From Schmidtea nova (lineage: Eukaryota), in contig CM097882.1 in NCBI GenBank assembly GCA_044892505.1, forward strand, positions 545,290,001 through 545,354,000: a stretch of 64,000 nucleotides of DNA, given 5' to 3'. The notes beneath the pieces are model-generated. The model did no database searches. It saw nothing but the letters and a program-made list of their open reading frames with translations, and was not told the DNA's origin. This document shows, one piece after another, positions 41,808 through 62,534 of the stretch; positions within the stretch are counted from its first letter, which is position 1; each line of letters opens with the position of its first letter. The position numbers were made by a program, and so were the translations under genes.

Positions 41808-41934
41808 TGTTGAAAGTGTAATAGGTAAACCATTTTCTCTTCCTGAATTAACAATTAACAGTCGTCGAAAGTACGAGAATTGTTCAAATCAAAACAACCA
41901 ATTTATGTTAATAAATCATCTTGAATTTTAGAGA

Positions 41935-42525: not shown

Positions 42526-43101
42526 AAATTCTGTGATTTAGTTATTTTCGCTTATTAAATAATTTTTGTTTTGTGTTTATTTTATTGTAAAGTATATGAA
42601 CTAAAGTATTTTATTAAAGGATTTCTAAATTAAGTTAAATGTAGATTATAATTAAAAGGTTGACCTGAACATAATAACAATAAGAGCATTAAAGAAATAA
42701 CATATTATAATTGATTAAAGATTATTTGTTGATATTGTAAAGAAGGGGCCGAAAGAAAAATTGAAAGTTGAAATATATTGTAAAGAAAAGGGGGCTAAAG
42801 AAATAATTGAAATGAAAGATAATGGATGCGGATAGATTAAAATTAAAGCGTAAGTCCTTCTATCGGCAGCGAGACGAACCCGTGAACATAAATGGGGAGT
42901 AGTTTTAGCAATAGAGCTCACCTGCCCATCATTGTTCAAACACCTTGCACATTTCCAACTCGATTATTACAGGGAAATGATCGAGGGTGCTCGTGTGATA
43001 TGTAAGCATTTTATGTAAGGTTTTGGATGGAGGAATCCCTAGAGCGTTTAGTTTAATTTTCTATTTTTGTTTTAACCCATCCGAACCGCCCAGCATAAAT
43101 T

Positions 43102-43119
43102 TGGGGGCTCAGCCGGGAT
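43102..43119 (+). promoter_or_regulatory. Primer-binding site, tRNA-Pro type
   Basis: TGGGGGCTCAGCCGGGAT matches the MLV tRNA-Pro PBS TGGGGGCTCGTCCGGGAT at 16/18 positions. Confidence 0.8.
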
Positions 43120-43483
43120 GAAAATGGTTTTTGTGCGAAAAATTGAATCCAATAATAACTAGGAGTTTTAAAGTACCCCTCAACCGAAAATTTAATTGAA
43201 TTTATGTTAGAAGTGAAAACAATATCAACAGAGAATTTTTGAAGAAACAATGAGTTAATAAATATAATAACAGACGATTAATAATTGACATTAAAATAAA
43301 ATAAATAAACATAAATAAATATGTCGGGACGACAATTTGACGAACCAGGTTTAACATCAGAAAACGAAATGTACCACTACTTTTGACCGACACAAATCAA
43401 ACAAATAGAGAAACAAGATATGGAAATTTTTATTTTTTAACAAATAAAGCAGCAAACATATTAACAATATCAATTATTTAGCA

Positions 43484-43945
43484 ATGAACGATAAATTAAA
43501 AGAAACAGAAGAATTCTTAAACACGGAAAACAAAACATACGATGAATTATGCGAGAAAATAAGTCGAATAAGAGAATCCGGATTCACAGAACCCATGACA
43601 CAAACCGAAGAGACAACAGAGCTGATAAAAATATTGGAAAGAGTAGACAAAATAGATATAACAACTAGATACAAGTGGTACCGAACGAGATTAGAAAATG
43701 CTGATGTAAACATAAAATGCAGACAGTTAGAACAACAATTAACTCCAACATACCACAAGTGGACGATACAAGGAACTGAGACAGCTAAGAAATTTAAACT
43801 GTGCTACATATGTCGAGGAAGAGAGAATAAAATCATGTTTTTACCATGTGGACATTTCCGGTTTTGTAGAATCTGTGCAGCCAATTGCGACAAATGCCCG
43901 ATGTGCAATCTCGAAATAGACGAAAGAATTATTGTGTATTTATAA
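43484..43945 (+). CDS. Coiled coil plus C-terminal IAP/MDM2-type RING protein, 153 aa
   Basis: CYICRGRENKIMFLPCGHFRFCRICAANCDKCPMCNLEIDERIIVYL* is the typical extreme C-terminal RING of IAP-like E3 ligases; no BIR domain seen. Confidence 0.85.
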   Translation: MNDKLKETEEFLNTENKTYDELCEKISRIRESGFTEPMTQTEETTELIKILERVDKIDITTRYKWYRTRLENADVNIKCRQLEQQLTPTYHKWTIQGTETAKKFKLCYICRGRENKIMFLPCGHFRFCRICAANCDKCPMCNLEIDERIIVYL

Positions 43946-44160: not shown

Positions 44161-44517
44161 AAATGAGAGTTGATAATGGCAATGACAGAGATCATAATAA
44201 CAATTGATATGTATAAATAATTTTTGAGCTGCTCACGAGTAGTCCGTTAAGCACCCATTGGGAGGAACCAACTGATCAACTTACCCGAGATGTATAGAAA
44301 GGGGCCCATCGCGGAAATTGGAAAGCTTTTGTGATGTGACTGATCACCACATCTTGCATTAGTAGACCAATGCGATCTTTTTGTATATTTTGGTTGGGGT
44401 GAAAGGTAGGGAAAATTCAATGAGGTTTAAGTGCGCGCAGAAAATATAAATAAAAAGAGAGAACAGAAAACTGATCAGTAAGAAATAAAGAGAATAAGAG
44501 TTAATATGATAACTAAG

Positions 44518-45511
44518 AATAATAGCAACATGAGAATATGAACTCATGATTGTAGGCAACATAAGAATTTGAACCTATGATTGCAGTGAATAATAGCAAC
44601 ATGAGAATATGAACTCATGATTGTAGGCAACATAAGAATTTGAACCTATGATTGCAGTGAATAATGGTAACATGAGAATATAAACTCATGATTGTAGGCA
44701 ACATAAGAATTTGAACCTATGATTGCAGTGAATAATAGCAACATGAGAATATGAACTCATGATTGTAGGCAACATAAGAATTTGAACCTATGATTGCAGT
44801 GAATAATAGCAACATGAGAATATGAACTCATGATTGTAGGCAACATAAGAATTTGAACCTATGATTGCAGTGAATAATAGCAACATGAATATATGAACTC
44901 ATGATTGTAGGCAACATAAGAATTTGAACCTATGATTGCAGTGAATAATAGCAACATGAGAATATGAACTCATGATTGTAGGCAACATAAGAATTTGAAC
45001 CTATGATTGCAGTGAATAATAGCAACATGAGAATATGAACTCATGATTGTAGGCAACATAAGAATTTGAACCTATGATTGCAGTGAATAATAGCAACATG
45101 AGAATATGAACTCATGATTGTAGGCAACATAAGAATTTGAACCTATGATTGCAGTGAATAATAGCAACATGAGAATATGAACTCATGATTGTAGGCAACA
45201 TAAGAATTTGAACCTATGATTGCAGTGAATAATAGCAACATGAGAATATGAACTCATGATTGTAGGCAACATAAGAATTTGAACCTATGATTGCAGTGAA
45301 TAATAGCAACATGAGAATATGAACTCATGATTGTAGGCAACATAAGAATTTGAACCTATGATTGCAGTGAATAATAGCAACATGAGAATATGAACTCATG
45401 ATTGTAGGCAACATAAGAATTTGAACCTATGATTGCAGTGAATAATGGTAACATGAGAATATGAACTCATGATTGTTGGCAACATAAGGAATGTGAACCT
45501 ATGATTGCAAT
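44518..45511. repeat. 71-bp tandem array, ~14 nearly identical copies, decaying to ~45690
   Basis: Unit AATAATAGCAACATGAGAATATGAACTCATGATTGTAGGCAACATAAGAATTTGAACCTATGATTGCAGTG. Confidence 0.95.
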
Positions 45512-46246
45512 AGTGATAGCAACAGAAGGAATATGAACCTTTGATTGCACTGTGGATAACAACATAAGGAATATGAACCTATGGTTGTAATTGTGGAAAT
45601 TTAGTAAATTTAGCAACCTAAGGAATTTGAACCCAGGTTTGCAATTATGTGAAATTAAATGACAACGAAAGGAATATGAACCTAGAGTTGAAGTCGTCGA
45701 CGACGTGAGAATAGTGAACATTAGAGTTTGAGTAATAAAAGTAAAGATGATTAAGAAAACTAGAGATACAGTATGCATACAAGTAGAAATAAGAATAGGA
45801 GAAATTAGAGTTGACTAGAAATAGTGAGAATAGTGAGTAATGATGAGAAATTAGAGATGACCAAGGAAAATTGGTAGAAATAGTGAGAATAATGAGTAAT
45901 GATGATACAATGAATAGTAATAAAATGATAAAACTGAGTCAGGAGAACTCAAGGGAATTAAAGCGTTTGAGCGACAAATTTATTTGGGAGACTGAGGGAA
46001 AAGTAATGAATTTATTTGATAACGATAGATAATTATTACGACCATATAGATAATTGTTACCAGTGAATAGATGATTTAAATAGACTTAAATAAAGGGGAA
46101 ACCGGGAATGGGGAAACAATGGAAACCCAATAATGAGGAATAAAAGCGCAACGATAACAATGATGTATCGTTGAAGTGACTTTTTAATTTAGATATACGG
46201 AACAGAACAAGTCAAACCAACCAACCAATCAATCATAATACGATAA

Positions 46247-48426
46247 CAGAGAAACAGAAAAATTGATAAATTAAAGAAAAGTAAACCGAGATCAAGAACA
46301 GCTAAAAATCAAGAAGTCAATAATTCACAGAGAAACAAATTGAGATCAAGAGCAGTTAGTGCTAGAACCCAAAAAGTTGATAAATCACAGAGAAGTAAAT
46401 CGAAACAAAGAGCAACCAGTGTTACAAAGAAAACAAATCCTAAAGGAAGTAAATCAAGAAGAGTAATAGTAGAAAAGTCAAAAATCGAAAACAGTAAATT
46501 AACAAAAACTAACGGAAGTGAAACAGAAGAAAGTGCAAGTGAATCCCACGATAATTATAATAATACGGAAGCATCAGATAACGAGTCAATAAACACAGAA
46601 GAAGTAGAAGCAGAAATTGATAATAATTCAAACGAAACGAATAACGAGCATACTAGTGAAACAAGAGGAAACGAGAGTAAAACGACACAAGACAGCGGAA
46701 TTGAAATGAACGAACATAAAGAAGAAATCAAAGATAAATTTACGGGAGAACCATTTAATGGAGATGCCAGCAAGTTAGAAACATTTTTAAAAGAATTTGG
46801 TATATTTGTAGAAGTATGTAAATGGAAACCAGAAACGATAAGAAGCAGAATTCAGTTATATTTAAAAGACAGTGCTATAGACTTATATTTAGAAGCTAAA
46901 AATTCAGATGATCAACTCGATAGTTGGGAAAAGATAAAGAATTTTTTCCAGCAAACGTTCGGAATAAATAAAGTATTAAATGAAGCATTTACAGAATTTT
47001 CAATGAGGAAACAAAAAGTTAATGAATCAAATGCAGTATATGCAAGTGAATTAAAGAAATTGGCTAAATTAGCATTTAATCAAAATAGTCCAATGAGTCC
47101 AGAATTAATGGCAGCAATTTTTGTGGGGGGATTGAGAAGACCCGATATAAGAGCACAAGTTGGATGCCAAGGTTGTAAAACAATAGATGAAGCGTTGGAA
47201 ATCGCCAACAGATTTGAATTACATATGATCGGAAGTGAAGGAAGAATTTACTTAGCAATGGATACGACACAAAATGAACAAGCAATAAAGATAAATAACC
47301 ATATTCCGAATTCACAGCAATTAAATCGACCACCACCTCAAAGGAGAAATGAAGGAAACAAAATACAAAATTACAGAAACCAAAATAATTATAGTACGCA
47401 GGACAGACAAAGCAATGTCAAACCTGTGGAAAGTCAGGACATTGGCAACAAGAATGTTTCGCGAATTTAAATTGTAAAAAGTGTGGAATAAAAGGACATG
47501 CGGAAAATAGATGTTACCAAAGATCATGTTATAACTGTGGACAACCAGGTCATATGGCGAAGAATTGCCAGCAACAAAACAACCAACAAAGGAATTGGTC
47601 GAACAACGGAAATCGACAAAATTATGTGAATCAACAGAATAACGGAAACCGTCAGAATTATGGAAATCAACAGAGTAGTTATAATCAGAACAAAAATGCC
47701 AACAAAGAAATACTTTTATTACAAGAAGTTCAAAGATTGACAGAGTTAATAAATAATACACCGAGAGGAAATCAACAAACGAATCAACAACAAATGAATA
47801 TGATGAGAAAAGTGGAAAGTGAAAATGAACGATTAAATCGAGAAAGTCAAGCACGACATGCTCAAGAATGGGCAAGAATACAAAGAGAAGACGAACAGAA
47901 ACGACAAGAAAGAGAACGACAACCATTGAGAATTAATATGATGAGAGCAACGAATCAAACAAGAGATAACAAAGAAGATATTGAACCAGAAACAAACCAG
48001 ATAAACCCAAATCCGGAAGATGAAGAAAACCAAAAAGAAATAGTACAAGAAAACGAAGAAGTTATTAAACAAAAAAGGATGTTGGTAGTCATGCCAAACG
48101 ATCATGTATTTCGATTTGAATATGATGAAAAAGAAGAAGTAGAAGTATTAATTAATAAAATAAACAAGACGATTCCGGGAATGACGAAACTACCCCGAGA
48201 AGCATTTTTACAGACAGAAGACGAAGCAGCAATAAAATTGAAACCAACCGACATATGGAAAGATTTAGGAGTACCAATGAATAAAATGAAAGTCACAGTT
48301 ATCCAAGAAATAGAAGAAAATAACGATGAAGAGAAATCAAAACCAGTAACAAAAGTCAAAAGTAGAGCATTGAAGATATTTGAAGAGAGAATCAAACAAA
48401 GAAGAGCAATGGAAATAGAAAAATGA
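46247..48426 (+). CDS. Gag (capsid-like domain, 3 CCHC knuckles, Q/N-rich region, Ubl-like domain); -1 frame change at ~47395-47415
   Basis: EPFNGDASKLETFL...YLKDSAIDLY...RKQKVNES...FVGGL is retrotransposon gag. The next frame gives CQTCGKSGHWQQEC, CKKCGIKGHAENRC and CYNCGQPGHMAKNC. The frame is open from 46247; first ATG at 46706. Confidence 0.85.
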
Positions 48427-49843
48427 AGAGGCCAAATAAAAGAACCAGAAAACAATGACAAAAAAGAAGAGATACCACCAAAAAATGTACCAGATAAAGT
48501 AGAACAGACAGCACATATAAACATGTTAAGAAACTTAACTAGAGAATTTTCAGATGTAGAAAGTGACAGTGATGTCAGTAGTTTAGCAGGAGATATGCTA
48601 AAAGAACCAGAAAATGAAGACAACCAGATAGAAGTAACAAAGACGCCAGAGAATATACAAATAAAAGAAGATGAAATTCAGAAACTATTAGTTAATGCGT
48701 TAGAAGTGATTTATAACGAAGAATTTATTGATAAGAAGCGATATCGAAAATTTATAAGAGCAGTATTCCGAACGAACTATAAAGAACGGTTACAAAGTCG
48801 TGAAGTAGAGATATTATCAGGATACGTCGTCAAACTATTAGAAGAACCACTCCACGAATACATAATTTTAATAGAAATAAACGAATGTTCACCAAGAATT
48901 TTATCGATGGGTAGAAGACAGATTGGGAAGTTCGTATAAAAACAAATTTATATATTCAGGAAACGAACTTGTAAGACGAGCAACGCATTTGGTAGAAACA
49001 GGCATATGGCCAGGAGAGATAACAACATTATCAATAGGTGACAATAAGAAAGAGGAGAATCTACAAGAAATCGCAAAGGAAGCAAATATGTGTTTTGAGA
49101 TGAGAATTAAACCTCAGTTAGTGGAAAGGAAAGAAAGAATTCTTAGAGAAAATTTAAATTCACTAATAGAACAAATTATTCAACAAATCGACAAGAATAG
49201 AGAAGAGTTAACGAAAACTGAATATGAGAAATTAAAACAATGCATCGAAAATATACGAGATACCAGCCATACGAGATATTCGCCGTACAAGACTTGGAAA
49301 GTGATCGCGAAAATGGGAAAAGCGATGTTTAAACGAGGAGAAATAGGAGATTTAAAAATCAAAGTGAAATTACCAAACGAGGACACAAAAGAAATTGAAG
49401 TAATCGCGGATTGCACAATAGAAGAATTAGTTGATGTTATCAATGAAACTTTATTACAACGGGAAAAAGAAGACGAATTGGTAGACGATATCATCATAAA
49501 ATATAATGAACACGTACTAGGGGATCATGATGAGAGACGATTATATAAAATTGGCATATGGGATAATTACCAAACAATTCATGTTATCAGAATGGATGAT
49601 ACACCAAGAGAAACACCAAAAGACGAAAAAAGGAGACAAGAACGTCGAAGAGAAGCGATGCACAAACTAAGACAAATAATAGAGATTTATCGAAGATGAC
49701 AGATACAGCCAGAATGGGAAAATGTATTAGGAGAATTAAACTTCAACGAACGCCGATTAACACCAGTAGAGAAACACTGGGATGTTAAAGAGAAATGCTG
49801 GAAAGCAAAAGGAGGTATATATGAAGAGGAATTTAGACCAGAA
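48427..49843 (+). CDS. Continuation of the Gag-extension polyprotein, broken by TGA 48424-26, a +1 shift at ~48881-48936 and TGA 49697-99; contains a ubiquitin-like domain
   Basis: Frames stay open directly past both TGAs. LKIKVKLPNEDTKEIEV...TIEELVDVINE...TIHVIR resembles the ubiquitin fold. Confidence 0.65.
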
Positions 49844-52800
49844 ATGGAAGACAAATATGAACCAGAAATTGGAAGAGTTTGTATGGTGATAAGAAAAGTC
49901 ATGCCAACAGATTTAGATGGACCAGAAACCGCAGCAATATGGTTAGAAACGCAAAGACGAAAAGCTGACGAACTTATTGAATTACTAAAAGGAAATGTAC
50001 AAGGAAAAAGGCGAACGATCAAAGGATTAGCCGAATTTTTTGTAGCAGGCGGTGAAGATATAATCAGTTTAAGAAAAGTAGCAAAGGCAGTAACAGAATA
50101 TAAACGAGTTAACGAGTGGTGCCCAGAACAGTTAGACAATGTAATCAAGAAATGGAGAAACCAAGAAAACTCCCAAGAACCACCGCAGAAAATACATTTA
50201 AGGATAATATATCCAGATCGAGAAAAAGAAGAGCTTTGGGTAAGATTAACTGAAAAGATTCGAGATGTTAAAAAGAGATTAAAATATGAACCACCATTTC
50301 ATCTACAACATCAAGGACGATCACTAGAAAACGATATGGAAATTTGGATAACGCCAGCACAGTTAGAACTGGCGAATACGTTAACAGTAGACGCAATAGC
50401 AAATCAACCATTAAAACTTAAAGAGAAAAGAGTAAAAGAAAGTGGAGATACTCAGAATCTAAAGAAGACGATGCAGATAAAGCCAGGAACAAGTGCAATA
50501 CAGTATGAAACATCATCAATAAAAATCCAAGAAAGAACTCAACCACAACCATACGATACAGAAGAAATATTAACAGACAGCGATGATATGCTAGAAGAAT
50601 TAGCAAAATTGACAAAAGAAAAAGGCAATAATATTTTCGAAAGAGTACAAGAGTTACCCACAACGTCAAAAGCAATCAATACCCAAGATGAAGTTGAGCA
50701 AGAAATAGAGATAGAAGAAGTGAACGAAATCTCTGAAGAAGAAGCAAGAGGAGCAAATACAGAAAACGAACGATTAACACAAGAAATGGAAAAATGGTGG
50801 GAACAGAGAAATAACGAACCAAGAGATGTTACAGAAGAAACTGGACGAGAAACCAGATTGATTGAAACAGGTACAACAATGGATAAACGACCTAGAGGTA
50901 GACCAAAGACAGATCCAGCCAATGTAATCAACAAAACCAAAGAGGAAAGGAGACAAGAGAAATGGGAAGTATGTTTAAAGAAACTCAACAAAATAGCAGA
51001 AGCAAAAGACCAGGAAATAACGCAAAAATGTCAAGGTGAAGGATGGATATCAAAAACACTAATGGAAATATTGGCGATAATTGATCCAGAATTGAAAAAA
51101 TGGTGGAGAATAAACGAAATAAGCGACAAGGCTAAAGCATTACATAGCGCAATCGCACCAATCTTACCAGAACTGATAAAAGAGAAGACAAAATCAAGCC
51201 ATTTAGATTGGCAAGGGACCACAACGTTGATAAAGAGGTTAACTGAAGATGCAGAAAATGATAATAAATATGTGATAGCAATTGCGTATACAATTTATAA
51301 CTTATTAACATTGAGTAGAGGTAATCCAAAATCTACGGCATTAGAGAAATATATCAAAAATACGGCAAATATCATAGCAAAAGAAATAGAACCATACGTC
51401 ATCAGTAAAGGAGGATGGGAAACATTTGCTAAAACGAATCAAAGAAACAGTCAAGCAAAGAATATGAAAAAGAAATTTGAAGAAATTTTAGGAGAATTAG
51501 AAAAAGAAAAGTCAGGAACAGGAGGTGGAAAATCTTCACTAAACCTGAATTCAATCATAATGATGATATTAATATGGCTAATTAGCGTTGAAGGAGCAAC
51601 GGCGTTCGAAGTATTTGATTGCGACCAGATGGCATTAGGAGAAAAATATTCATTGAGAGGAACAGAACAATGCAAAGATGCAACTCCAACAGAATTAAAA
51701 GTATTACATAGTAAACAAATATATCACGTATATCAGGAAGCCGACTTAATAAAGACAACAGTTAATGAGTGTAAAATATATAAAACAAGATTTGCTTTTT
51801 ATTGTGGACATCGCCACTACTCTGCAATCGTAATGCCAGGAACGGAAAGAGAAGCGATAATGTTACAAGGAGAAGATTGCAATAAATTGTTTAAACATGG
51901 AGAAGTCGAAACAAGAGATCGAATAAAGATAAGAGGAAAAGCTGGAGTAATACTACAACAAACATATTATGTAGCAGGAGCTATCACAGGAGGAGAAGGT
52001 TACTGTCAAGGAGCAACATATCCAATATTTGGAGTACCAGCAACTAACATGGTAGTAATAGACACGTATACGGTAGAATTAAAAGCGTATGAAGCATATT
52101 TTGACCCAGCAACAGGAGAAATGAAGACGTTATCAATGTGCAAAATTGAAGCCAGTACTTGTCAAACCGGTATGTCAACTTTAACGTATAGAGCAAGAGC
52201 AAATGAATGCCAATTACAATTATTAAAGGAAGCAGAGTTCGACGAGGTACAAGGAAAAATCTTTCAGGAAGAAGATGATGATGAAGTAGCAAGAGGAAAA
52301 CGTCTACAGGAGACAGTAAAAGGAGAGAAACCGTTCACCACTAAAGTACAAGAAAAAGAGGTAAGGATGAGAGAGACGCCAACAGTATTGGTTACATCAA
52401 ACGCAAATATAGGAATGAGGTTTGTAAAAGGAAAACCGGCATTAAAATGTGGTGTTTCTATGTTAGAAACAAATTACCCAGGTATTTATGTATCAAGACA
52501 AGCAGCACCAAATGCAAAACCCAAGATAGACACTACAGACATCAAATTGCACGTATATTTAAATAACAAATTGGATTTTTTATTTCATAAAGGTCAAGCA
52601 TCAATGGAGAAAATATACTACGATCTCATTAACAACGATTGTATATTGAACAGAGAAATATTAAAGACGAAATTAGCAGTAGCAATCACAAACCCGGACA
52701 GTGCTATGCCATTATTACCACTTAACGAAGGTCATTTTGGAAGAGTAGTTGGAGAAGTTATGTATGTATATATATGCCAAAAGACACAAGCAAACCTAGC

Positions 52801-55800
52801 AACAACGACCAGAATACGACAAGGACAATGTACCAACGAATTGGAAATTGAATATAAAGGGAAAATAAGATATGTACAACCAGTGACAAGAATCATTAAC
52901 CCAGTTAGTTTTGAACCAAACCCTTTCAATTGTAGTAATGCATACGGACCGTTATATCAGAAACCAGACGGAAATTGGGTCATGTTTCCGTCAAGATCAG
53001 AAGTACAACCACCTAGAGAATTTGAATTGATGCAACTTTCAAAAGGACGAAAATTTTCCAATATAGATGTAAATAATGGAGGAATTTACAGTGCAAAAGA
53101 TCTCGAAGCAGCACGACAAAATATATTATTTCCAGCTAGGAGAGAAGCAGTATTATCTAGCATTGTAACAATAACAGGAGGAACAAGTTATCAAGGAGGA
53201 CCAAATTATGAATTATTACTGTCACCAGCACACTTTAGGAAAGCAACAGAAAATATGATGAAAGCAATGTGGGGACGATTTTTAATTTTCGGACAAATGA
53301 TGGCCGGAATACTAGGTGTAATTTTAATCATACAAATAATACGAGTGATAATCACACAAATGCTAGCATGCTTTGATATTTATAAAAGAGAAAAGAAAAT
53401 TAATTGGAAATTAATAGCAGGATTTCTACCATTTTTAGCAAAAACGATGGTGTTACATGGTCACTCCAAAGATATTCATAGAATAAAAAGATTATTAAAA
53501 ATACTGGCAAAAATGAAAGGAACAGATGAAGACGTGGGAAGAAAATTCAAAAAGATAATGGCAGATGAACAAGCAAGACTACAATTAAAAAGAGAAAGAA
53601 AAGGATTATGGGAAAGAATAAGAGGAGATAAAACTCAAGACGATTCCAGTGATGACGATGATAACAATGACGACTGTGAAGGAGGGCAAAGGTACGGAAA
53701 CCAAGCACCGCAATATAGCGACAAGAATCCAGCAGAAGCATGGAAATGTCACGCACCTCCACCAACAATGTATCAAGAACCATTACAGGTATCAGGACAC
53801 AGAGCAATGCAAATGATGCCAATGACAACTTTATATCCAATTATACCAGAAGATTATAAACTAAGGCGATGTAGAAGTATGGATCCGCAAGACGATTCAC
53901 TCACAATTGCAGTCATGTCATCAAATACAGGACCAGTATTAACTACAACTATAGAAATAAATGGAAAAGAAATAGAAGCGATGATAGATACAGGAGCAAA
54001 TATTTCGGCGATAGATATTAAATGGATACCGCAAGAACAAAGACAAGAAATTGAAAGAACAAATGTTCATGTAATAGCATGTAGCAAAGAGATAGTCGAA
54101 GTTGCAGGAAGATGGTGGGTGAAAATACGACACCAAAACATAGAAATCGAAACCTATGTAGCAGTAATACCAGCTTTAAGTGTACCATGTATAATCGGAA
54201 CGGATTTAATGCCAACACTATTTAAAGAAATAATCATCGACCTTGGAACAATGAGATTAAAGGACAGAACAGAGAAAATATGTGCCATGAAAACAAAAGT
54301 AATAAACTCGAAACAAATAATGATACCGGAAGAAAGAATCATGACGAGATCACAAACCATCAGAATAAATATGCTCAGAGCGGAAGAAATTAACACAGAT
54401 AGTCAAGTAGACAGTGAGAAAATCGATGTTGACAAAGAAATCATACGAAAAGCCAAAGAAATAAACGAAAGATGGGAAATCAGACAAGGAAAAGACGTAT
54501 TATGGGATATACGACAAATAATTAGTGATTACGCACGAGGATGCCCAACCAAACCAATCATAATAGAATTACTAAAGAAAATACCAGAGATACTCGTATT
54601 ACAAGATACAGGAGGTGCAACTGCACTACACAATGCCATAAGTTGGGGTAAAACGGAAAAGGTAAAAGAATTTTTGAAAATAGCAAAAGAAACGAATCAA
54701 AATCTAGACATTGTAAATCGAGAATTAGAAACGCCAATGATGACAGCAACACTAAGCTTAGCAGATAAAGAAATAGTAGATATGCTGATAAACGCAGAAT
54801 TCAACTGGACAGCTCGTGATAGAAGAGGAAATACAGTTTTGAATCATGCAATAATGAGTGAAAATCAAATGATACTAAAACATATAACAACCAACCTCAC
54901 ATGGGAAATCGATGAATTAATCAAAGGAGAAATTATGAAGGAAGCGATTCGGAAAGGAAACACTAAAACAATATGGAAACTAATACAATGGAAATGGCCG
55001 GATAATAAAACATGGGTATTAGATATAAACAAAGAATTTAGTGAAGGACAAAACGCGCTATTGAGATACTTATTAGAGTTTACGTGCGATCAGAGAACAA
55101 TGTTAGCACTAATGAATAGAGGAAACATAAAAATTAGTAAGAACGAAGAAGAATACAAACTAGAAGTCGAAAAGGAAGCGTTATTCAGAAAAATTTGGGT
55201 ATGGTGTCAAAAACAAATACGCAAAGACATAAGCTACAAAAATCTAAATGATTTCCAAGAAAAGTATAAGATAATAATAAAAGAATACAAGAAGCTAGTG
55301 GAGATATTAAACGATCCAGAAAAATTTAATCAAGCGATAAATCAGAAAGAAGAAAGTAAAAGGATACTCACACCATTATTCAATGCGAAGATAGATTACC
55401 AAGAAAGATTGGATGCAATACACAAAAAAGCAAAGGAACTATTACCAGAATTCAAAGATACTAAATACGCCTTAGAAATACTTGGCGCGATAGTAGAAAA
55501 GGTACACGCGTATGCGAAAGGAATATATAACGGAAACGATATAATAATTATAAAAAGAGAAATGCCAGTTGCATTTTTACTAACTAAAGAAAGAATAATG
55601 CCGATTCATAGAGCATTGAGAGCAGGAAAAGACAGTAAAGTAATCGAAATCGCAAGATTAATGCATCAATGTGGATGTGATATGAATATGATAGACGAAA
55701 AAGGAGACACCCTCATGGTATACGCAGCAAGAGCAAAAACAAAAATCAAAGTATTAGAAGAGTTATATAAAGCAGGTGCAGGATTAATCGGAAAAACTAG

Positions 55801-58579
55801 TAAAGACAACTCAATATTAGACGTGACATTATTAGGTCCAAACTGGGAAATGTTGAATTTCATTAAAACGATAACAAACCAGGAAGAGATAGACTATTTG
55901 ACAGAAACCGTAAAAGGACCAAGCGTATTGACAATGATGCAAAACATCAAATTGACAGAAGAAGTACTAAACTGGAAAATACCAAATACAAATAAACCAG
56001 CATTTAAAGTTAACAAGTTTATGGAGAAAAATCGAAATTGGTGTATCCAAAGCGCACTAATAACTTATATATGGCCCGAAATTGTAGAAATTTTCATGAG
56101 AAGAGAAGACCTGAGATTTACAAACAAGCCCAAAGAAACGGAAAAGATGGTTAAATGGAAAGAATTGATGAAAACACACCTTCAAAGTTGGATAAAAGCC
56201 AAGAAAGAAATTATACAGTATCAGTTAGACAACAAAAAGATACCCGAAGATATAGAATTCCAAGAATTCGAAGCAAGTAACTTAACATCACTATATTATG
56301 CAAAACTAATAGAAACAAGTAATGTCGAGGACGACATTTTTAACGAGCCAGGGAGAGATAATAATACTGACAATGATGATGACGATGAAGAAAACAAGGA
56401 CGACGAGAGAAATAATGACGATGATAATAATAAAAACAATGACGACGAGAGAAATAAAGACGATGATGATGAAAACAATCACGGAAATCCAGATAACCAC
56501 GAACAAACCAACAAAGAAGACGAGAATCAAGAGGGAAATACAAAGAAACAAGAATCCAAAGAACAAAGAGAAGACAACCCTAAAAACAATCATGAAAAGA
56601 AAGGAACAAGTTACAGAAGGAATCCATTATTCAGACCAGAAGTATTAATGTTCGCAATAATCATAACACTTATGGGACAATGTGAAGCAACGAAACAAGA
56701 GATATCAGTAGAAATGGAAGTACCAATACAAAAAGCATCAACACAAATAATGAATTCAAAGGAAATTGAGCAAGTATGTTGGGTCAAAGAGAACGAAATT
56801 CTCGGAGATAACAACCTATTACGATGTATAATCCCAAACCCCGATCGAAAAACTATAATAATAGACGAGATGGATATGGAAACATGGTACAGAATATGTA
56901 CAATCAGAAAACCCAAAGACGAAAAATCACACAAAACAGTTACATGCCAAGTATACAAGACACCCAAAGTCCGATACGAGTTCACCAATGGAATAGACCT
57001 TCCAGGACCATTTTATTTTAGAATAACAAGAGCACCAGCATCAAGAAAAGTCTTACAACCACCAAGAACCAAGATAACAACACCAAGTATAAGGAATACA
57101 ACGGTTAAACCAGAACCAAAAAGACGAACGAAACAAACCACAAGAGTAATCTACAATTCCAAGTTATTATGTATAGCACTTATTATGACAATACTGAAGC
57201 GATTAGAAGAAGGAATAGAAATGGATACAATGACATTAATAGACATGGAAGAAACACAAATGACAAATCAAAAATGTTGGTTTAGAAACGATGAAAAATT
57301 AGAATTAAAGGAATCAAGAGAAATTCAGAAATTGGAAGCGAGTAAAACGAACAAAGTAATCAAGATAATAAAGATAAAAACGGACAGAATTCATAAACTA
57401 TGCTTATTGGAAAAAGAGAGAAACAAGAAAGGAATAACCAATTGTAAAACATTCCAAGCAGGAAAAATAATAACGTTTGCAAGAAAAATAGGAAAAGGAA
57501 ACAAACAGAATTTCCAGAAATTAACCATAACGTTAGAAATAACGGGAATAGAACAAAACGTAAACGGAGTATGCTGGAGAAAATACGAGAAAGAAACGAA
57601 TAATCATAAATCATCACAATGTCAAACAGTCAGAGGAACAACTGCAGTACAAATAAAAAGCTTAGAAAGAAATCAAACGTATGAAATATGCCTAGTAAAG
57701 GAAAATGATCAAATAACGAAAGAAGATTTAGAATGCAGAATATACAAAGCACCGAACAGAGTAAAAACCAGTAAAACAATACGAAAGAATAAAAGACAAC
57801 AAAAACCGAAGTATACCACTACCGAAAGTCAAACAGAACCAGAGAGAAAAACCTCAGCAACACTTATACTTTGGAAATTAGATGACAAAACAGTGGAAAT
57901 ATGTTGGTCAATAATCAAGAAATACAAAGAAAGACAACCACAACAATGCGAAAAGATGAATAAAGAAGAGGAGATCAGAATTCAGAACCTACAATTGGAC
58001 AAACAATACGAAATATGCGCAATAGAAAAGGCAGATAAATTTGGAAACCAACAAGAAAAATGTGGAAACTACTATACACCGACAAATACAACGATCAAAG
58101 GAAGAATCAAGAAACTAACATTCGGAGAATTGAATCAAACAACGAAACAAATGGAAAACGAGGAAACAATAATAGATTCTTATGCCAAATGGAAACCAGA
58201 AAAAGTAATCCATGAAGTCAAAAGGAAACAACAAGAACGAAAACAATTGGAACTCAAATTAAAAGGACAATATGGACCAATGATCAATCAAAGCAAATTC
58301 ACCCAAATCAATGTTAACAAGCAAGGAAGAGAACTAATTGGAGTAGGAATACTGGCAGTATGTGCACCAGTAATAATAATACTCTCAATAATATGGCTAT
58401 GGGACATAATAAAAAAGAAACCAACCAGACAATGGCCAGATATAAAGATTATGAATTGTAAAATCAAGATACCAGAAGAAGTAAAGAAAGAATTCCAAAG
58501 AAGAACCAAAGGCAAAGAATTTTGGAAGCAGATCGAAGACGAGGAGCGACACGATGAAAAAGCAGTGATGATAGTATAG
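49844..58579 (+). CDS. 2911-aa multidomain polyprotein: Ubl-like, AT-hook, Bcl-2-like, class III envelope, retropepsin, ankyrins, FN3-like membrane protein
   Basis: Uninterrupted 8.7-kb ORF; domain motifs are listed as separate features. Confidence 0.92.
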   Translation: MEDKYEPEIGRVCMVIRKVMPTDLDGPETAAIWLETQRRKADELIELLKGNVQGKRRTIKGLAEFFVAGGEDIISLRKVAKAVTEYKRVNEWCPEQLDNVIKKWRNQENSQEPPQKIHLRIIYPDREKEELWVRLTEKIRDVKKRLKYEPPFHLQHQGRSLENDMEIWITPAQLELANTLTVDAIANQPLKLKEKRVKESGDTQNLKKTMQIKPGTSAIQYETSSIKIQERTQPQPYDTEEILTDSDDMLEELAKLTKEKGNNIFERVQELPTTSKAINTQDEVEQEIEIEEVNEISEEEARGANTENERLTQEMEKWWEQRNNEPRDVTEETGRETRLIETGTTMDKRPRGRPKTDPANVINKTKEERRQEKWEVCLKKLNKIAEAKDQEITQKCQGEGWISKTLMEILAIIDPELKKWWRINEISDKAKALHSAIAPILPELIKEKTKSSHLDWQGTTTLIKRLTEDAENDNKYVIAIAYTIYNLLTLSRGNPKSTALEKYIKNTANIIAKEIEPYVISKGGWETFAKTNQRNSQAKNMKKKFEEILGELEKEKSGTGGGKSSLNLNSIIMMILIWLISVEGATAFEVFDCDQMALGEKYSLRGTEQCKDATPTELKVLHSKQIYHVYQEADLIKTTVNECKIYKTRFAFYCGHRHYSAIVMPGTEREAIMLQGEDCNKLFKHGEVETRDRIKIRGKAGVILQQTYYVAGAITGGEGYCQGATYPIFGVPATNMVVIDTYTVELKAYEAYFDPATGEMKTLSMCKIEASTCQTGMSTLTYRARANECQLQLLKEAEFDEVQGKIFQEEDDDEVARGKRLQETVKGEKPFTTKVQEKEVRMRETPTVLVTSNANIGMRFVKGKPALKCGVSMLETNYPGIYVSRQAAPNAKPKIDTTDIKLHVYLNNKLDFLFHKGQASMEKIYYDLINNDCILNREILKTKLAVAITNPDSAMPLLPLNEGHFGRVVGEVMYVYICQKTQANLATTTRIRQGQCTNELEIEYKGKIRYVQPVTRIINPVSFEPNPFNCSNAYGPLYQKPDGNWVMFPSRSEVQPPREFELMQLSKGRKFSNIDVNNGGIYSAKDLEAARQNILFPARREAVLSSIVTITGGTSYQGGPNYELLLSPAHFRKATENMMKAMWGRFLIFGQMMAGILGVILIIQIIRVIITQMLACFDIYKREKKINWKLIAGFLPFLAKTMVLHGHSKDIHRIKRLLKILAKMKGTDEDVGRKFKKIMADEQARLQLKRERKGLWERIRGDKTQDDSSDDDDNNDDCEGGQRYGNQAPQYSDKNPAEAWKCHAPPPTMYQEPLQVSGHRAMQMMPMTTLYPIIPEDYKLRRCRSMDPQDDSLTIAVMSSNTGPVLTTTIEINGKEIEAMIDTGANISAIDIKWIPQEQRQEIERTNVHVIACSKEIVEVAGRWWVKIRHQNIEIETYVAVIPALSVPCIIGTDLMPTLFKEIIIDLGTMRLKDRTEKICAMKTKVINSKQIMIPEERIMTRSQTIRINMLRAEEINTDSQVDSEKIDVDKEIIRKAKEINERWEIRQGKDVLWDIRQIISDYARGCPTKPIIIELLKKIPEILVLQDTGGATALHNAISWGKTEKVKEFLKIAKETNQNLDIVNRELETPMMTATLSLADKEIVDMLINAEFNWTARDRRGNTVLNHAIMSENQMILKHITTNLTWEIDELIKGEIMKEAIRKGNTKTIWKLIQWKWPDNKTWVLDINKEFSEGQNALLRYLLEFTCDQRTMLALMNRGNIKISKNEEEYKLEVEKEALFRKIWVWCQKQIRKDISYKNLNDFQEKYKIIIKEYKKLVEILNDPEKFNQAINQKEESKRILTPLFNAKIDYQERLDAIHKKAKELLPEFKDTKYALEILGAIVEKVHAYAKGIYNGNDIIIIKREMPVAFLLTKERIMPIHRALRAGKDSKVIEIARLMHQCGCDMNMIDEKGDTLMVYAARAKTKIKVLEELYKAGAGLIGKTSKDNSILDVTLLGPNWEMLNFIKTITNQEEIDYLTETVKGPSVLTMMQNIKLTEEVLNWKIPNTNKPAFKVNKFMEKNRNWCIQSALITYIWPEIVEIFMRREDLRFTNKPKETEKMVKWKELMKTHLQSWIKAKKEIIQYQLDNKKIPEDIEFQEFEASNLTSLYYAKLIETSNVEDDIFNEPGRDNNTDNDDDDEENKDDERNNDDDNNKNNDDERNKDDDDENNHGNPDNHEQTNKEDENQEGNTKKQESKEQREDNPKNNHEKKGTSYRRNPLFRPEVLMFAIIITLMGQCEATKQEISVEMEVPIQKASTQIMNSKEIEQVCWVKENEILGDNNLLRCIIPNPDRKTIIIDEMDMETWYRICTIRKPKDEKSHKTVTCQVYKTPKVRYEFTNGIDLPGPFYFRITRAPASRKVLQPPRTKITTPSIRNTTVKPEPKRRTKQTTRVIYNSKLLCIALIMTILKRLEEGIEMDTMTLIDMEETQMTNQKCWFRNDEKLELKESREIQKLEASKTNKVIKIIKIKTDRIHKLCLLEKERNKKGITNCKTFQAGKIITFARKIGKGNKQNFQKLTITLEITGIEQNVNGVCWRKYEKETNNHKSSQCQTVRGTTAVQIKSLERNQTYEICLVKENDQITKEDLECRIYKAPNRVKTSKTIRKNKRQQKPKYTTTESQTEPERKTSATLILWKLDDKTVEICWSIIKKYKERQPQQCEKMNKEEEIRIQNLQLDKQYEICAIEKADKFGNQQEKCGNYYTPTNTTIKGRIKKLTFGELNQTTKQMENEETIIDSYAKWKPEKVIHEVKRKQQERKQLELKLKGQYGPMINQSKFTQINVNKQGRELIGVGILAVCAPVIIILSIIWLWDIIKKKPTRQWPDIKIMNCKIKIPEEVKKEFQRRTKGKEFWKQIEDEERHDEKAVMIV
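50990..51430 (+). other. Bcl-2-like domain within the polyprotein
   Basis: BH1-like LDWQGTTTLIK (cf. NWGRIVAL) and BH2-like YVISKGGWETF (cf. WI...GGW..F) at the usual spacing. Confidence 0.65.
51548..53460 (+). other. Envelope glycoprotein, chuvirus G / herpes gB-like (class III) type
   Basis: Internal signal SIIMMILIWLISVEGATA|FEVFDC, YSL...C, CKIYKTRFAFYCGHRHYS, YCQGATY, NNKLDFLF, C-terminal W..F.IFGQMMAGILGVILII TM and a second hydrophobic stretch. Confidence 0.8.
53930..54260 (+). other. Retroviral-type aspartic protease
   Basis: IEINGKEIEAMIDTGANISAI (DTG at 53987-95) and PCIIGTDL. Confidence 0.9.
54600..55870 (+). other. Two ankyrin-repeat clusters (~54600-54900 and ~55595-55870)
   Basis: DTGGATALHNAISWG, NRELETPMMTA, DRRGNTVLNHAI; PIHRAL, DEKGDTLMVYAA, KDNSILDVT. 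Confidence 0.8.
56639..58410 (+). other. Signal-like segment, four FN3-like repeats and a C-terminal TM
   Basis: Four units of xCW...I..L.....Y.IC.......C..Y.T, then TM LIGVGILAVCAPVIIILSIIWLW. Confidence 0.6.
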
Positions 58580-59037: not shown

Positions 59038-59134
59038 TCAAATTGTAGCGGAAAATTGTATATATGTAAAAATAAAACTCTAGAGAAATCAAAAAACAAA
59101 GAACAAATCAATGTATGTATATATTATTGTAGAA

Positions 59135-60490
59135 ATGGATAAAGAGGAACGAGCAGTCGAGATTTTGAGAGCAGCAAACAGAAAGTGGAACAAGAGATTT
59201 GTATGTGGATATTGTAATAATTTATTACGGAAACCAAAGCAAACCACCTGTGGATGTAGATTATGTACTAGATGTGTACAAGTGTTAGAGTTGAAAAGAA
59301 TAACAGAATGTCCAGAATGTAAAGAAGGACAAATAGTGTTAGACGAAACAAGACCAGATAGAGCAACTCAGAGAGAAATCATGAGCATACTAATTGAATG
59401 TATAAATCCACCGTGCATATGGCAAGGACAAATCAGCGAAATTGAAAATCATATAGGAAATTGTGAAGAAAAGAGAAGCGAATGTGAAAAGTGTAAAGAA
59501 ACGATAATTTTAAAAGACAAAGAAAAACACAGAGATGAATGCAAAGAGGAAGAAATCGCATGTGAATATTGCGAAATTCGAGAAACAAGGAGAAAAATTG
59601 AAGAGGAACACATCAATATAAAAGAAGAAAAAATATGCGAACAGTATGTAGGAGTGTGCCCAAACAAATGTGAAATTACCGAAGAAGTGAAATTACGAGA
59701 ACATTGGGAAAAGTGTACAGAAATACCAAGAGAATGTCCTTACAACAGATATGGATGCAAAGAAAAGAAATCTCAACAAAATATGAAACAACATTTAGAA
59801 ACAGAAGCAATCAATCATATTGAAATGACAGACAGAACAATTCAGAAATTAGAAAAAGAAGTGGAATCTCATAAAATAATGATGAACCTATTATTAGAAA
59901 CGAGAGAACAATTTGAATTAACCCGAGAAAAGATGGAAAAGAAAATAATAGCCATCAAGGAATTAGCAAAAGGAATGAAAGTGCAATATAACAAGTTAAT
60001 ACAAGAAATTGATGAGAAAAAAGATTTACCAATAGCACCTTATGTGTGGAAAATAACGGATTTCCGAAATAAATTGGAAGATGCACGAAGCTTCAAGAAA
60101 ACTGCGGTAATAAGCCCACCATTTTACTTATGGAAAAACGGGGCTAAAGTGAGATTGAAAGTATATCCAAACGGAGATGGGACAAGTATTGGAAAACACG
60201 TATCGATATTTTTTGCGTTTTGCAAAGGAGAATATGACTATTTAATCGATTGGCCGATAGGAGTAGGAGTAATGATAAAAATCAGGGGTTTAAACGAAAC
60301 CATAGAAAAGAGATTCACGACAGAAAAAGGAGCAGTTATGAGTAACAGACCAACAGAAGAATGTGGATTAGCAAGTGGAGAACCACACTTTGTATTACAA
60401 AGCAAGATATGGGGATTATTGTATGAGGACACCTTATACATAGAAATGGAAAGGAACGAGAAGGCAGATAGAAAAGGATGGTTGGCGTAG
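59135..60490 (+). CDS. Full-length TRAF-like protein (RING, TRAF zinc fingers, coiled coil, MATH), 451 aa from ATG 59135, intronless
   Basis: CGYC..LLRKPKQTTCGCRLCTRC...CPEC; C...C.W.G...EIENH...C; CPYNRYGC...MKQHL; MATH YVWKITDF...SPPFY...YPNGDG...HVSIFF...GEYD..I.WP. Confidence 0.92.
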   Translation: MDKEERAVEILRAANRKWNKRFVCGYCNNLLRKPKQTTCGCRLCTRCVQVLELKRITECPECKEGQIVLDETRPDRATQREIMSILIECINPPCIWQGQISEIENHIGNCEEKRSECEKCKETIILKDKEKHRDECKEEEIACEYCEIRETRRKIEEEHINIKEEKICEQYVGVCPNKCEITEEVKLREHWEKCTEIPRECPYNRYGCKEKKSQQNMKQHLETEAINHIEMTDRTIQKLEKEVESHKIMMNLLLETREQFELTREKMEKKIIAIKELAKGMKVQYNKLIQEIDEKKDLPIAPYVWKITDFRNKLEDARSFKKTAVISPPFYLWKNGAKVRLKVYPNGDGTSIGKHVSIFFAFCKGEYDYLIDWPIGVGVMIKIRGLNETIEKRFTTEKGAVMSNRPTEECGLASGEPHFVLQSKIWGLLYEDTLYIEMERNEKADRKGWLA

Positions 60491-60595
60491 CAAGAGAAAA
60501 TGATCGTGTAAATAAACTGTACAAAACAATATAAAATGATAAATAAACAAAAATAATAAAAGTAGCCTGATTGAAAATATTTGTAATTATAGAAA

Positions 60596-61699
60596 ATGGG
60601 AAACGTCGAAATCAGTTTACAAGAAGTAACCGAACATCAAGATGAAGTTATTTGTGAGCTTTTAGAACAAATTGAAAGTTGGATCCACGCATATTACCAC
60701 AAACAAAAAGAAGTAGAAAGACAAGCCGAACAAATAACAGAAGCCAAAAGATTAAAGCAATTAAGTCAAGATAAAATAGACGAACTATATGAATTATTGG
60801 AGAAACAAAAAGAATATTATAAAAAGATGATGAAAGAACGACGAGAAGAAAAAGAGCGAGAACGAACAGAAATGGAACGGAAAATGTACTCCATTACCGA
60901 GCAAGCAAGATATTGGAAAAAAGAAGCGAAAGAATCTTATACGAAAGCAAGAGAAATAATCGAAAGAACGGCGTACAGCGATGATTGGAAATTATTTGAA
61001 GAAATCGATAAATTAAAAGAGGAATTAGAACAGAAAACCTATCAGGAAATATCGAGCAAAAAATGGAATAAAAAGAGACAACAATTTATCAGAGAGCAAG
61101 CAGGAAAAATTAAACAACTTATGCACCAGATTGAAAGATCGGAAAGAGAATTGTATTTCAGTAAACAACAATCAGATGCAAACCTCAGAGCAGGGATGCA
61201 GAAAGAGGAAGATATGAAGCGCGATATTAATGGTTATCAAGGAGTAATCACTCAAAAGAAGATAGAATTAAAGAAAACTAAAGAAAGATTAGAAGAAGCA
61301 AAACAAAGCTATGAAGAAAATTTATTAAAATTAGAAGAAGCAAAACAAAGCTATGAGGAAAATTTATTAAATTTAACCAAAGAAAATGAAGAGTTGAAAC
61401 AAAAATTGATACAAAAATTAACACCACCAAAAGAGACAGATATCACCAAAGCAGTAATAAAAATGATGGAAGAGGAAGAGAAAAACAATAAAATAACAGA
61501 ATTAGAAAAACAGATCGAAGCATTAACAGAACAATCAAACTATTTAGAATATCTGTTGGATGAAGAAATCCAATTATCACACTTCTATCGAGACGAAGTA
61601 ACAATGTGGAGAAACACGATAGTGTGGTTACCACCCCCTACAAACCAAGTGGAACCTCAAGATGAAGGTTTTCACGAACCCAATGAGTCGTTAGTATAA
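60596..61699 (+). CDS. Orphan long coiled-coil protein, 367 aa
   Basis: Intact E/K/Q-rich ORF with a 14-aa internal duplication (LEEAKQSYEENLL). Confidence 0.7.
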   Translation: MGNVEISLQEVTEHQDEVICELLEQIESWIHAYYHKQKEVERQAEQITEAKRLKQLSQDKIDELYELLEKQKEYYKKMMKERREEKERERTEMERKMYSITEQARYWKKEAKESYTKAREIIERTAYSDDWKLFEEIDKLKEELEQKTYQEISSKKWNKKRQQFIREQAGKIKQLMHQIERSERELYFSKQQSDANLRAGMQKEEDMKRDINGYQGVITQKKIELKKTKERLEEAKQSYEENLLKLEEAKQSYEENLLNLTKENEELKQKLIQKLTPPKETDITKAVIKMMEEEEKNNKITELEKQIEALTEQSNYLEYLLDEEIQLSHFYRDEVTMWRNTIVWLPPPTNQVEPQDEGFHEPNESLV

Positions 61700-61774
61700 A
61701 AGAAGTGCGAAAATTAGTTGTAAATATCTGTAAAATAACCATGTCAAACTGTATTGACAAATTTGTAAAGTGAA

Positions 61775-62338
61775 ATGAAGAAGCTCACAATACTGATAAT
61801 CCTAAATGTAATCGAAATCACCCAACAAAGAGAAGACCGTGCGATATCAAAAGAAAATCTACAAGTCTTACCCGAGAAAATCTATAAAGAAATAGATGAT
61901 CTATTAAAAGAAACAGTCAAAGAAATCTCTCAAATTCAATTGTCAACAGCACCTAACCCAGTAGCAACGCAACAAACCCTGTGTAAAATCAATAACAAAT
62001 TAGAGAAGATTCGAAAAACCCTAAAAGAAAGTAAAGAAACTATAAAGAGTTTACATCGAGCAGAAATTCAATACCAAGAGAGATGGATCGTTGCGATCAT
62101 AATCGTGTTAACAATTAGTACAACAACCTGCGCAATTACCATTCTCATCGCAGTATACAGAATAAAGATCTTAAAACAAAAACAATCAATCATCAATCAA
62201 ACAACAGCACATGATGACAATGCCCGAAGACGAATGAGAAATCAGCTCAACAGAATACGAACCCAATACGAGTTACCAGTAATTCCACAGAACCAGTCCA
62301 ATCCAGTGCGAGTTATGAACTATTTATATAAACCATAA
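61775..62338 (+). CDS. Orphan predicted membrane protein, 187 aa (signal, coiled coil, TM)
   Basis: MKKLTILIILNVIEI signal-like start, coiled coil, and TM WIVAIIIVLTISTTTCAITILIAVY. Confidence 0.65.
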   Translation: MKKLTILIILNVIEITQQREDRAISKENLQVLPEKIYKEIDDLLKETVKEISQIQLSTAPNPVATQQTLCKINNKLEKIRKTLKESKETIKSLHRAEIQYQERWIVAIIIVLTISTTTCAITILIAVYRIKILKQKQSIINQTTAHDDNARRRMRNQLNRIRTQYELPVIPQNQSNPVRVMNYLYKP

Positions 62339-62500: not shown

Positions 62501-62534
62501 ATTGCGGGACGCAATTTTAGGGGTCCCCGAGTGA
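62501..62534 (+). promoter_or_regulatory. Putative plus-strand priming region before the 3' LTR
   Basis: ATTGCG-GGA-CGCAAT hairpin then TTTAGGGGTCCCCGAGTGA just before TGTTGG; a weak purine tract. Confidence 0.35.

What the first reader, a model, noticed from the sequence alone, without database searches (positions are those of the whole stretch)
51548..54260. Class III-type envelope fused in frame upstream of the protease
In env-bearing LTR elements env normally follows pol as a separate ORF. Here a chuvirus/gB-like glycoprotein lies between the Gag extension and the retropepsin in one frame. This implies a membrane-threaded polyprotein (cytosol, lumen, cytosol, lumen) cut by signal peptidase and the retropepsin, a flavivirus/alphavirus-like strategy. 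It suggests infectious or cell-to-cell spread.
Basis: partly seen in the sequence, partly recalled or inferred. Interest (0 to 1): 0.85.

Follow-up and report, generated by a model that had tools for sequence, protein, structure and literature searches.

The report
Burro retroelement envelope inside polyprotein
A giant jumping gene carries a predicted herpesvirus-like fusion protein inside its one long protein, an order already published for these elements; new here are a second predicted surface protein and a majority of close copies that have lost their copying enzymes and likely borrow them.

Summary
Observation confirmed, headline already in print. One open frame (49700-58579) holds a signal-like segment, a chuvirus-type glycoprotein (Pfam PF24664, E 5e-68), a membrane anchor and a retropepsin. 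The model folds as a class III fusogen (pLDDT 89.8; best solved matches herpesvirus gB). The order is not a rearranged copy: it holds in sibling copies, in other families of the genome and in 10 of 14 long database relatives. It is a Burro-type Ty3/gypsy element, and env in frame between gag and pol was reported for Burro in 2019 (PMC6431247), gB-type GAG-ENV-POL flatworm elements in PMC13524379. Not found in print: (1) a second signal-FN3-like-anchor unit after integrase, kept in distant families; (2) this copy lacks RT, RNase H and integrase through an in-frame deletion shared by at least 40 copies against 19 undeleted; (3) the env signal sits where a BCL-2 tail anchor would. The window copy is also broken in its Gag part. 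Membrane threading is inferred; expression, cleavage and infectivity are untested.

The parts
40323..43095 (+). 5' LTR, about 2.8 kb (its first ~19 bases fall in an N stretch)
   Evidence: 99.46% identical over 2772 columns to the 3' LTR, which runs past the window end
40908..41114 (+). three repeated 12-bp-stem hairpins in the LTR
   Evidence: repeat family D12; folding z -4.4, -4.5, -5.1; a fourth, looser copy z -1.6; no Rfam family
41932..42522 (+). 197-aa frame inside the LTR, no clear family
43102..43119 (+). primer-binding site for tRNA-Pro, 6 bases after the LTR end
   Evidence: complement of the 3' end of host tRNA-Pro(TGG) genes
43448..43942 (+). accessory RING-finger frame
   Evidence: zf-C3HC4_3 E 3.3e-11
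44505..45514 (.). 71-bp tandem array in the leader
46247..49699 (+). Gag (capsid-like, three CCHC knuckles) and Gag extension, broken in this copy into four frame pieces
   Evidence: Retrotrans_gag E 1.8e-4 (below cut-off), zf-CCHC E 5.1e-11; tblastn against an unbroken sibling
49700..58579 (+). open frame of 2959 aa holding everything from the end of the Gag extension to the second anchor
51050..51424 (+). BCL-2-like domain (weak)
   Evidence: no Pfam or Atlas hit for this copy; aligns to family F, whose domain scores Bcl-2 E 5.5e-4, below cut-off; noted for Burro in PMC6431247
51551..51604 (+). internal signal peptide 1 (predicted)
   Evidence: hydropathy 1.97; hydrophobic run before the [FY]DC start in 17 of 17 chains
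51605..53296 (+). class III (gB/chuvirus G-type) envelope ectodomain; furin-like RGKR at 52292-52303
53297..53371 (+). membrane anchor 1, followed by a conserved weaker hydrophobic stretch
53945..54217 (+). retropepsin protease
   Evidence: RVP E 2.1e-8
54311..54335 (+). junction of an in-frame ~3.0-kb deletion that removes RT, RNase H and integrase
54581..54865 (+). ankyrin repeats
   Evidence: Ank_2 E 5.9e-11
56627..56689 (+). internal signal peptide 2 (predicted)
   Evidence: hydropathy 1.51; same place in other families
56690..58336 (+). second ectodomain with three or four disulphide-type FN3-like repeats (predicted)
58337..58399 (+). membrane anchor 2
   Evidence: hydropathy 2.87
59084..60490 (+). 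accessory TRAF-like frame (RING, TRAF zinc finger, MATH)
   Evidence: MATH_2 E 2.4e-20, zf-TRAF E 5.5e-8
60593..61699 (+). accessory charged, coiled-coil-like frame
   Evidence: no Pfam family
61769..62338 (+). accessory 189-aa frame with hydrophobic N-terminus and one more hydrophobic segment
   Evidence: read from the sequence; only weak Pfam hits
62535..64000 (+). 3' LTR (start TG; continues beyond the window)

Best explanation
This is a Burro-type Ty3/gypsy LTR element whose single long reading frame carries a predicted class III fusion protein between Gag and the protease, and whose product is likely threaded through the ER membrane four times and cut into parts. Inferred mechanism: Gag and a BCL-2-like domain are made in the cytosol; signal 1 opens translocation and is cut by signal peptidase, which would leave the BCL-2-like domain tail-anchored; anchor 1 stops translocation, so protease, RT, RNase H, integrase and ankyrins are cytosolic and are freed by the retropepsin; signal 2 reopens translocation for an FN3-like second surface protein held by anchor 2, most likely an attachment or host-modulating partner of the fusogen. 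The window copy belongs to a subfamily that has lost RT, RNase H and integrase in frame (shown); such copies likely spread by co-packaging with complete elements that supply these enzymes (inferred). This copy itself is broken in Gag (shown).
For: Fold: model pLDDT 89.8, pTM 0.69, 100-row alignment; Foldseek top rows all herpesvirus gB, best E 4.8e-14; the 11 best VIA rows are all class III fusogens, best HSV gB Z 9.2, rmsd 7.2, 395 aligned; closest viral models are chu-like virus G, E 1.3e-36. Order: complete siblings of 5147 and 5140 aa read env-PR-RT-RH-IN-ANK; a 16-kb family (3393-3401 aa, 28% identical over the BCL-2-env-PR span) has signal-env-anchor-PR-RT-RH-IN-signal-ectodomain-anchor in 4 of 4 copies read; 10 of 14 long database relatives have protease after env in one chain, and 3 of the 4 with integrase have further hydrophobic segments after it. 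Selection between subfamilies: dN/dS 0.077 env, 0.22 second ectodomain. No acceptor-like site shared by the four families before env, and no Met at a shared place. Deletion: 40 of 40 scored matches span one junction (capped), 19 of 40 scored matches are undeleted copies of this subfamily; two deleted copies read in full have LTRs 99.97-100% alike and 4-bp target duplications; deleted and complete copies interleave on three regional trees and differ only within about 30 bases of the junction.
Against: No protein, glycan or RNA evidence. Signals were called by hydropathy and eye, not by a trained predictor; signal 2 is marginal (1.51) and was missed at the 1.5 threshold in one sibling, signal 1 in two. 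A conserved second hydrophobic stretch after anchor 1 (hydropathy 1.0-1.7 in 15 chains) and a third signal-like stretch inside the second ectodomain (57155-57208) could change the topology. The second-ectodomain model is poor (pLDDT 43.5, 4 rows), its best VIA Z is 7.8, within the range seen for common arrangements, Pfam gives no fn3 hit and second ectodomains of different families show no significant sequence likeness. The env ectodomain has few glycosylation sequons (0.18-0.37 per 100 aa, fewer than the pol region). The BCL-2 call is below Pfam's cut-off everywhere and its GGW mark is present in only 8 of 17 chains.
Confidence: 0.7

Rival explanations
1. The frame is continuous, but most Env is made from a spliced or internally started message, as for Drosophila gypsy env (recalled), and full-length translation serves mainly Gag and Pol.
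For: An in-frame Met lies 47 residues before the mature start in the window family; equal amounts of Gag, Env and Pol from one frame would be unusual (general knowledge). One acceptor-like site lies within 600 bases before env in each of four families.
Against: Those sites sit at different distances (-437, -437, -284, -137) and at background density (1.4-2.2 per kb). Pol can only be reached by reading through both env membrane segments, so threading must happen at least for Pol.
Confidence: 0.15
2. The glycoprotein has a fusogen fold but works inside or between touching cells (budding into ER or vesicles, cell-cell fusion), with no free infectious particle.
For: No particle data seen; BURRO1 RNA is silenced by PIWI and appears in differentiated tissue on knock-down (PMC8532177, passages). 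Host effectors (BCL-2-like, TRAF-like, RING, ankyrin) fit a cell-resident life.
Against: Strong purifying selection on the whole ectodomain, 10 near-invariant cysteines shared with free virus G proteins, and a second surface protein suit an entry machine. This rival is compatible with the threading mechanism and differs only in outcome.
Confidence: 0.3
3. The pol-less copies are plain parasites whose open frames are kept only by youth and by recombination with complete elements, not because their own Gag, Env and protease are used.
For: Deleted and complete copies recombine freely, so low pN/pS among deleted copies can be inherited. The 15 copies analysed were picked for open frames; 36 of the 51 closest env matches had other frame lengths.
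Against: The deletion is in frame; 15 of the 51 closest env matches keep a whole 4108-4140-aa frame against 2 with a whole complete frame; deleted copies outnumber complete ones at least 2 to 1, so they hold most of the subfamily's variation, and it is purified (shared variants pN/pS 0.06 in env, 0.13 overall).
Confidence: 0.4

Closest known systems
Burro / GYPSM1 giant gypsy-like LTR retrotransposons of planarians (PMC6431247, section 7 read whole; Grohme 2018 not held, known through that review)
   Same: More than 20 kb with long LTRs; one ~5,000-aa frame (a 5,140-aa ORF1 is reported; 5140 and 5147 here); Gag with CCHC knuckles, BCL2-like motif, env in frame between BCL2 and protease, ankyrins, MATH/TRAF in an accessory frame.
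   Different: The review likened env to gypsy/baculovirus F while noting mononegavirus hits; here the fold is class III. Its text names no second membrane unit, no topology and no pol-less subfamily (figure 2A not visible to me). The TRAF-like frame is downstream here, upstream in the element it describes.
HSV/gB-type GAG-ENV-POL errantiviruses of flatworms, nematodes and bryozoans (PMC13524379: abstract, section 5 part 1 of 2, section 14, passages, supplement rows)
   Same: Ty3/gypsy pol, gB-type env flanked by signal and anchor, env before pol; six planarian elements are listed as ENV_HSV.
   Different: The paper speaks of ORF order; 'polyprotein', 'fused', 'fibronectin' and 'Burro' have 0 occurrences in its main text. 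It kept only elements with full RT and integrase, so pol-less families were excluded.
Chuvirus G and env of mosquito BEL/Pao elements (PMC7642597, search listing only; described in PMC13524379 section 14)
   Same: Same glycoprotein family PF24664; about 20-28% identity to many ~650-aa stand-alone relatives.
   Different: There env stands alone or follows the Pao C-terminal domain (P0036: DUF5641 then env); here it precedes a Ty3/gypsy pol.
Flavivirus and alphavirus polyproteins (recalled, no call)
   Same: Internal signals and stop-transfer segments alternate the chain between cytosol and lumen; host signal peptidase plus a viral protease cut it. A works-like comparison only.
   Different: No homology; class II fusogens there, class III here; this element integrates.
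Coding non-autonomous LTR elements: plant TR-GAG (search listing), mouse IAP I-delta-1 (recalled)
   Same: Lose replication enzymes, keep structural genes, spread with a helper.
   Different: This one keeps Gag, envelope, protease and a second surface protein, about 4,100 aa in one frame.

Membership tests
Ty3/gypsy (Metaviridae) | pol order PR-RT-RH-IN with GPY motif | tested here: met
   complete siblings; the window copy itself lacks RT-RH-IN
Ty3/gypsy (Metaviridae) | TG...CA LTRs, tRNA primer site, short target duplication | tested here: met
   4-bp duplications read in 4 of 4 siblings; the window's 5' flank is N
Ty3/gypsy (Metaviridae) | placement on an RT tree with reference elements | not tested
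   no reference set fetched
Burro | giant size with one ~5,000-aa gag-env-pol frame | tested here: met
   28-kb siblings with 5147 and 5140 aa frames; window copy is a 25-kb deletion form
Burro | env in frame between BCL2-like motif and protease | tested here: met
   env and protease strong; BCL-2 weak
Burro | ankyrin, MATH/TRAF and RING cargo | tested here: met
Burro | dUTPase-like domain between PR and RT; BIR; ubiquitin-like domain | tested here: inconclusive
   no Pfam dUTPase or BIR hit at E<=1; weak OTU1_UBXL E 0.043; the review used HHpred
Burro | sequence identity to named Burro-1 to -4 | not testable with these tools
   no named Burro sequence held
HSV/gB-type errantivirus | class III ectodomain between signal and anchor, conserved cysteines | tested here: met
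HSV/gB-type errantivirus | trimer, fusion activity, infectious particles | not testable with these tools
   monomer model only
BEL/Pao env-bearing elements | Pao-type domains with env after pol | tested here: not met
   no DUF5641 or Pao peptidase; env precedes protease
Fibronectin type III domain (second ectodomain) | seven-strand beta-sandwich with L-x-P-x-T-x-Y-like motif | tested here: inconclusive
   Foldseek best E 1.4e-5, nearly all listed rows FN3 proteins; VIA Z 7.7, rmsd 3.1, 75 aligned for one repeat; Atlas scores 0.76-0.77, lead only; loose motif in 6 of 6 chains, no control; Pfam none

The most novel reading that the evidence does not exclude
Burro-type elements are two-glycoprotein enveloped retroviruses of invertebrates that make capsid, a tail-anchored BCL-2 mimic, a gB-type fusogen, all enzymes and an FN3 attachment protein from one four-pass polyprotein; the pol-less majority is not a parasite but a second, structural genome that restores the Gag/Env-over-Pol excess that a single frame cannot give.
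Probability: 0.15. Interest if true: 0.8.

Novelty: new variant of a known kind. Interest (0 to 1): 0.4.

Why it matters
The headline (env in frame before the protease) is known. What is added makes it testable: exact predicted cut sites, a class III assignment for Burro env, a second surface protein that would parallel the fusogen-plus-attachment pairs of large enveloped viruses, and a numerous pol-less subfamily that keeps 4,100 codons under selection. If confirmed, it would show how a retroelement expresses envelope without splicing or frameshifting, and whether planarian transposons move between cells.

Tried and rejected
Sequence search of env against PDB chains: nothing below E 0.26. Word-index search at similar length: none of 8000 scored; longer proteins: 1 of 5484; second ectodomain region: none of 5623. 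Atlas for the BCL-2-like region: no usable hit. Public runs: no RNA holder listed; laying four runs of unrecorded kind showed even cover and no GT..AG joint among the 15 joints shown (14 not shown), which says nothing on expression or splicing. The deletion as a retro-copied splice: rejected, its ends are not GT..AG and share a few bases, as in a template switch. Rearranged single copy: rejected. Rfam on the LTR and leader: two chance-level hits. Testing selection on the pol-less lineage alone failed: only four codons next to the junction separate the two forms (10 of 16 deleted copies had the left anchor, 6 of 7 undeleted the right). In one search the Gag dS was saturated. Earlier findings of the scan: none. 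Literature: 'retrotransposon + fibronectin type III + envelope + planarian' 0 papers; 'Burro + planarian + non-autonomous' only the 2019 review; searches added nothing. The original Burro paper was not held; its text, its supplement and figure 2A of the review may already show the second membrane unit or deleted forms.
Full report
Observation. The + strand frame 49700-58579 is open for 2959 codons. Pfam places Monjiviricetes_fusion (E 5.4e-68), a retroviral aspartyl protease (E 2.1e-8) and ankyrin repeats (E 5.9e-11) in it, in that order. Hydropathy finds segments at residues 618, 1200, 2310 and 2880, plus one inside the protease.

The element. Two LTRs of about 2.8 kb, 99.46% alike, start near 40.3 kb and at 62535. 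A primer site complementary to host tRNA-Pro follows the first. Between them lie a RING frame, a 71-bp array, Gag, the long frame, a TRAF-like frame and two more accessory frames. Gag is broken in this copy by two frame shifts and two stops. No RT, RNase H or integrase is present.

Fold. A 100-row alignment gave a model with pLDDT 89.8 and a 48-residue central helix. Foldseek lists herpesvirus gB in every row shown from the PDB (best E 4.8e-14, TM 0.35-0.47) and chu-like virus glycoproteins first among viral models (E 1.3e-36, TM up to 0.71). The independent aligner ranks gB, rabies G, Bourbon, Chandipura and Thogoto glycoproteins in its first 11 rows (best Z 9.2, rmsd 7.2, 395 aligned). This is a class III fusogen fold; activity is not shown.

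Gene order is ancestral. In G000, 127 of 3072 candidates were scored: 51 at 93-100% identity and 76 at 85-86%. Complete copies of both subfamilies read Gag-env-PR-RT-RH-IN-ANK in 5147 and 5140 aa. A smaller family of 3393-3401 aa has the same order in 4 of 4 copies read. Of 14 long database relatives, 10 carry a protease after env in the same chain and 5 carry RT as well; two end after env, one ends within it, one is BEL/Pao-like. Env is under purifying selection between subfamilies (dN/dS 0.077).

What is known. [quoted passage not shown] PMC13524379 (abstract, sections 5 part 1 and 14, passages, supplement rows) reports HSV/gB-type GAG-ENV-POL elements in flatworms, nematodes and bryozoans, six of them planarian. 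The headline is therefore known. A planarian-type host is inferred from this likeness.

Second membrane unit. After the ankyrins lies a second signal-like segment, a 550-residue cysteine-paired region and a strong anchor. The same signal-ectodomain-anchor pattern follows integrase in the smaller family and in 3 of 4 database relatives that reach integrase. The model is poor overall (pLDDT 43.5), but its better repeats match FN3 domains (Foldseek E 1.4e-5; VIA Z 7.7, rmsd 3.1, 75 aligned), as do Atlas leads. Sequons are denser there than in the pol region in 6 of 6 chains. Against: no Pfam hit, no sequence likeness between families, and Z in the range of common arrangements. dN/dS is 0.22, the highest of the domains. 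I did not find this unit in print, but could not see the original Burro paper or the review's figure.

Signal 1. All 17 chains have a hydrophobic run just before the [FY]DC start of env; 8 of 17 have a BH2-like GGW 55-85 residues earlier, and three score Pfam Bcl-2 below cut-off. The signal thus sits where BCL-2 proteins have their tail anchor (recalled), so one segment may do both jobs. This is inference.

The pol-less subfamily. Against a complete sibling the window lacks about 3.0 kb in frame; the two ends share a few bases and are not splice sites. All 40 scored matches to the junction span it (cap reached), while 19 of 40 scored matches to the undeleted form belong to this subfamily. All 15 copies with frames of 4108-4140 aa lack RT and integrase. 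Two read in full have near-identical LTRs and 4-bp target duplications, so they were inserted by an integrase they do not encode. They are 96.7-99.3% alike, shared variants have pN/pS 0.13 overall and 0.06 in env, and they interleave with complete copies on three regional trees. Recombination is so free that only codons beside the junction tell the forms apart, so selection on the pol-less lineage alone could not be isolated; the copies were also picked for open frames.

Mechanism. Shown: one frame, domain order, conservation, deletion, recent insertion. Predicted: class III and FN3-like folds, signals, anchors. Inferred: four-pass threading, cuts by signal peptidase, furin-like protease and retropepsin, helper-dependent spread. 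Untested: expression, particles, fusion, infection; the public runs did not bear on expression. A spliced env message is the main rival for expression; no shared acceptor or start was found.

Verdict. Real and correctly described, but the headline is published. The second surface unit and the dominant pol-less form make it a new variant of a known kind. Interest 0.4.

Noticed in passing
window 40908-41215 and 63139-63345: Three to four repeated hairpins with a 6-base loop in each LTR, folding z -4.4 to -5.1; candidates for packaging or protein-binding signals.
   Followed up: partly
window 62515-62534: The stretch before the 3' LTR is not a plain purine tract in the two giant subfamilies (it holds a GGGGTCCCC palindrome), whereas the smaller family has a typical one.
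   Followed up: no
window 43096-43101: Six bases separate the LTR end from the primer site, longer than the usual one to three (recalled).
   Followed up: no
window 57155-57208: A third signal-like stretch before the second FN3-like repeat, kept in both subfamilies; may be a duplicated signal-repeat unit.
   Followed up: partly
P0001, P0002, P0003, P0004, P0006, P0017: Several database relatives carry two or three retropepsin domains in tandem after env, one also after integrase.
   Followed up: no
L091 (G000:C1 near 459.6 Mb): Long tandem array of tRNA-Pro genes at 308-base spacing; 1105 pattern matches genome-wide.
   Followed up: partly
window 28849-29364 (-), 27799-28455 (-), 21658-23766 (-): Frames on the minus strand, one with a P-loop motif resembling a packaging ATPase by eye; possibly part of a virus-like DNA element.
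   Followed up: no
window 10257-11684 (+) and 35420-37066 (-): Frames that look by eye like hAT-type transposase pieces.
   Followed up: no
window 3632-4063 and 19785-20216: 432-base inverted repeat, 99% complementary, 15.7 kb apart; likely ends or copies of a DNA transposon.
   Followed up: no
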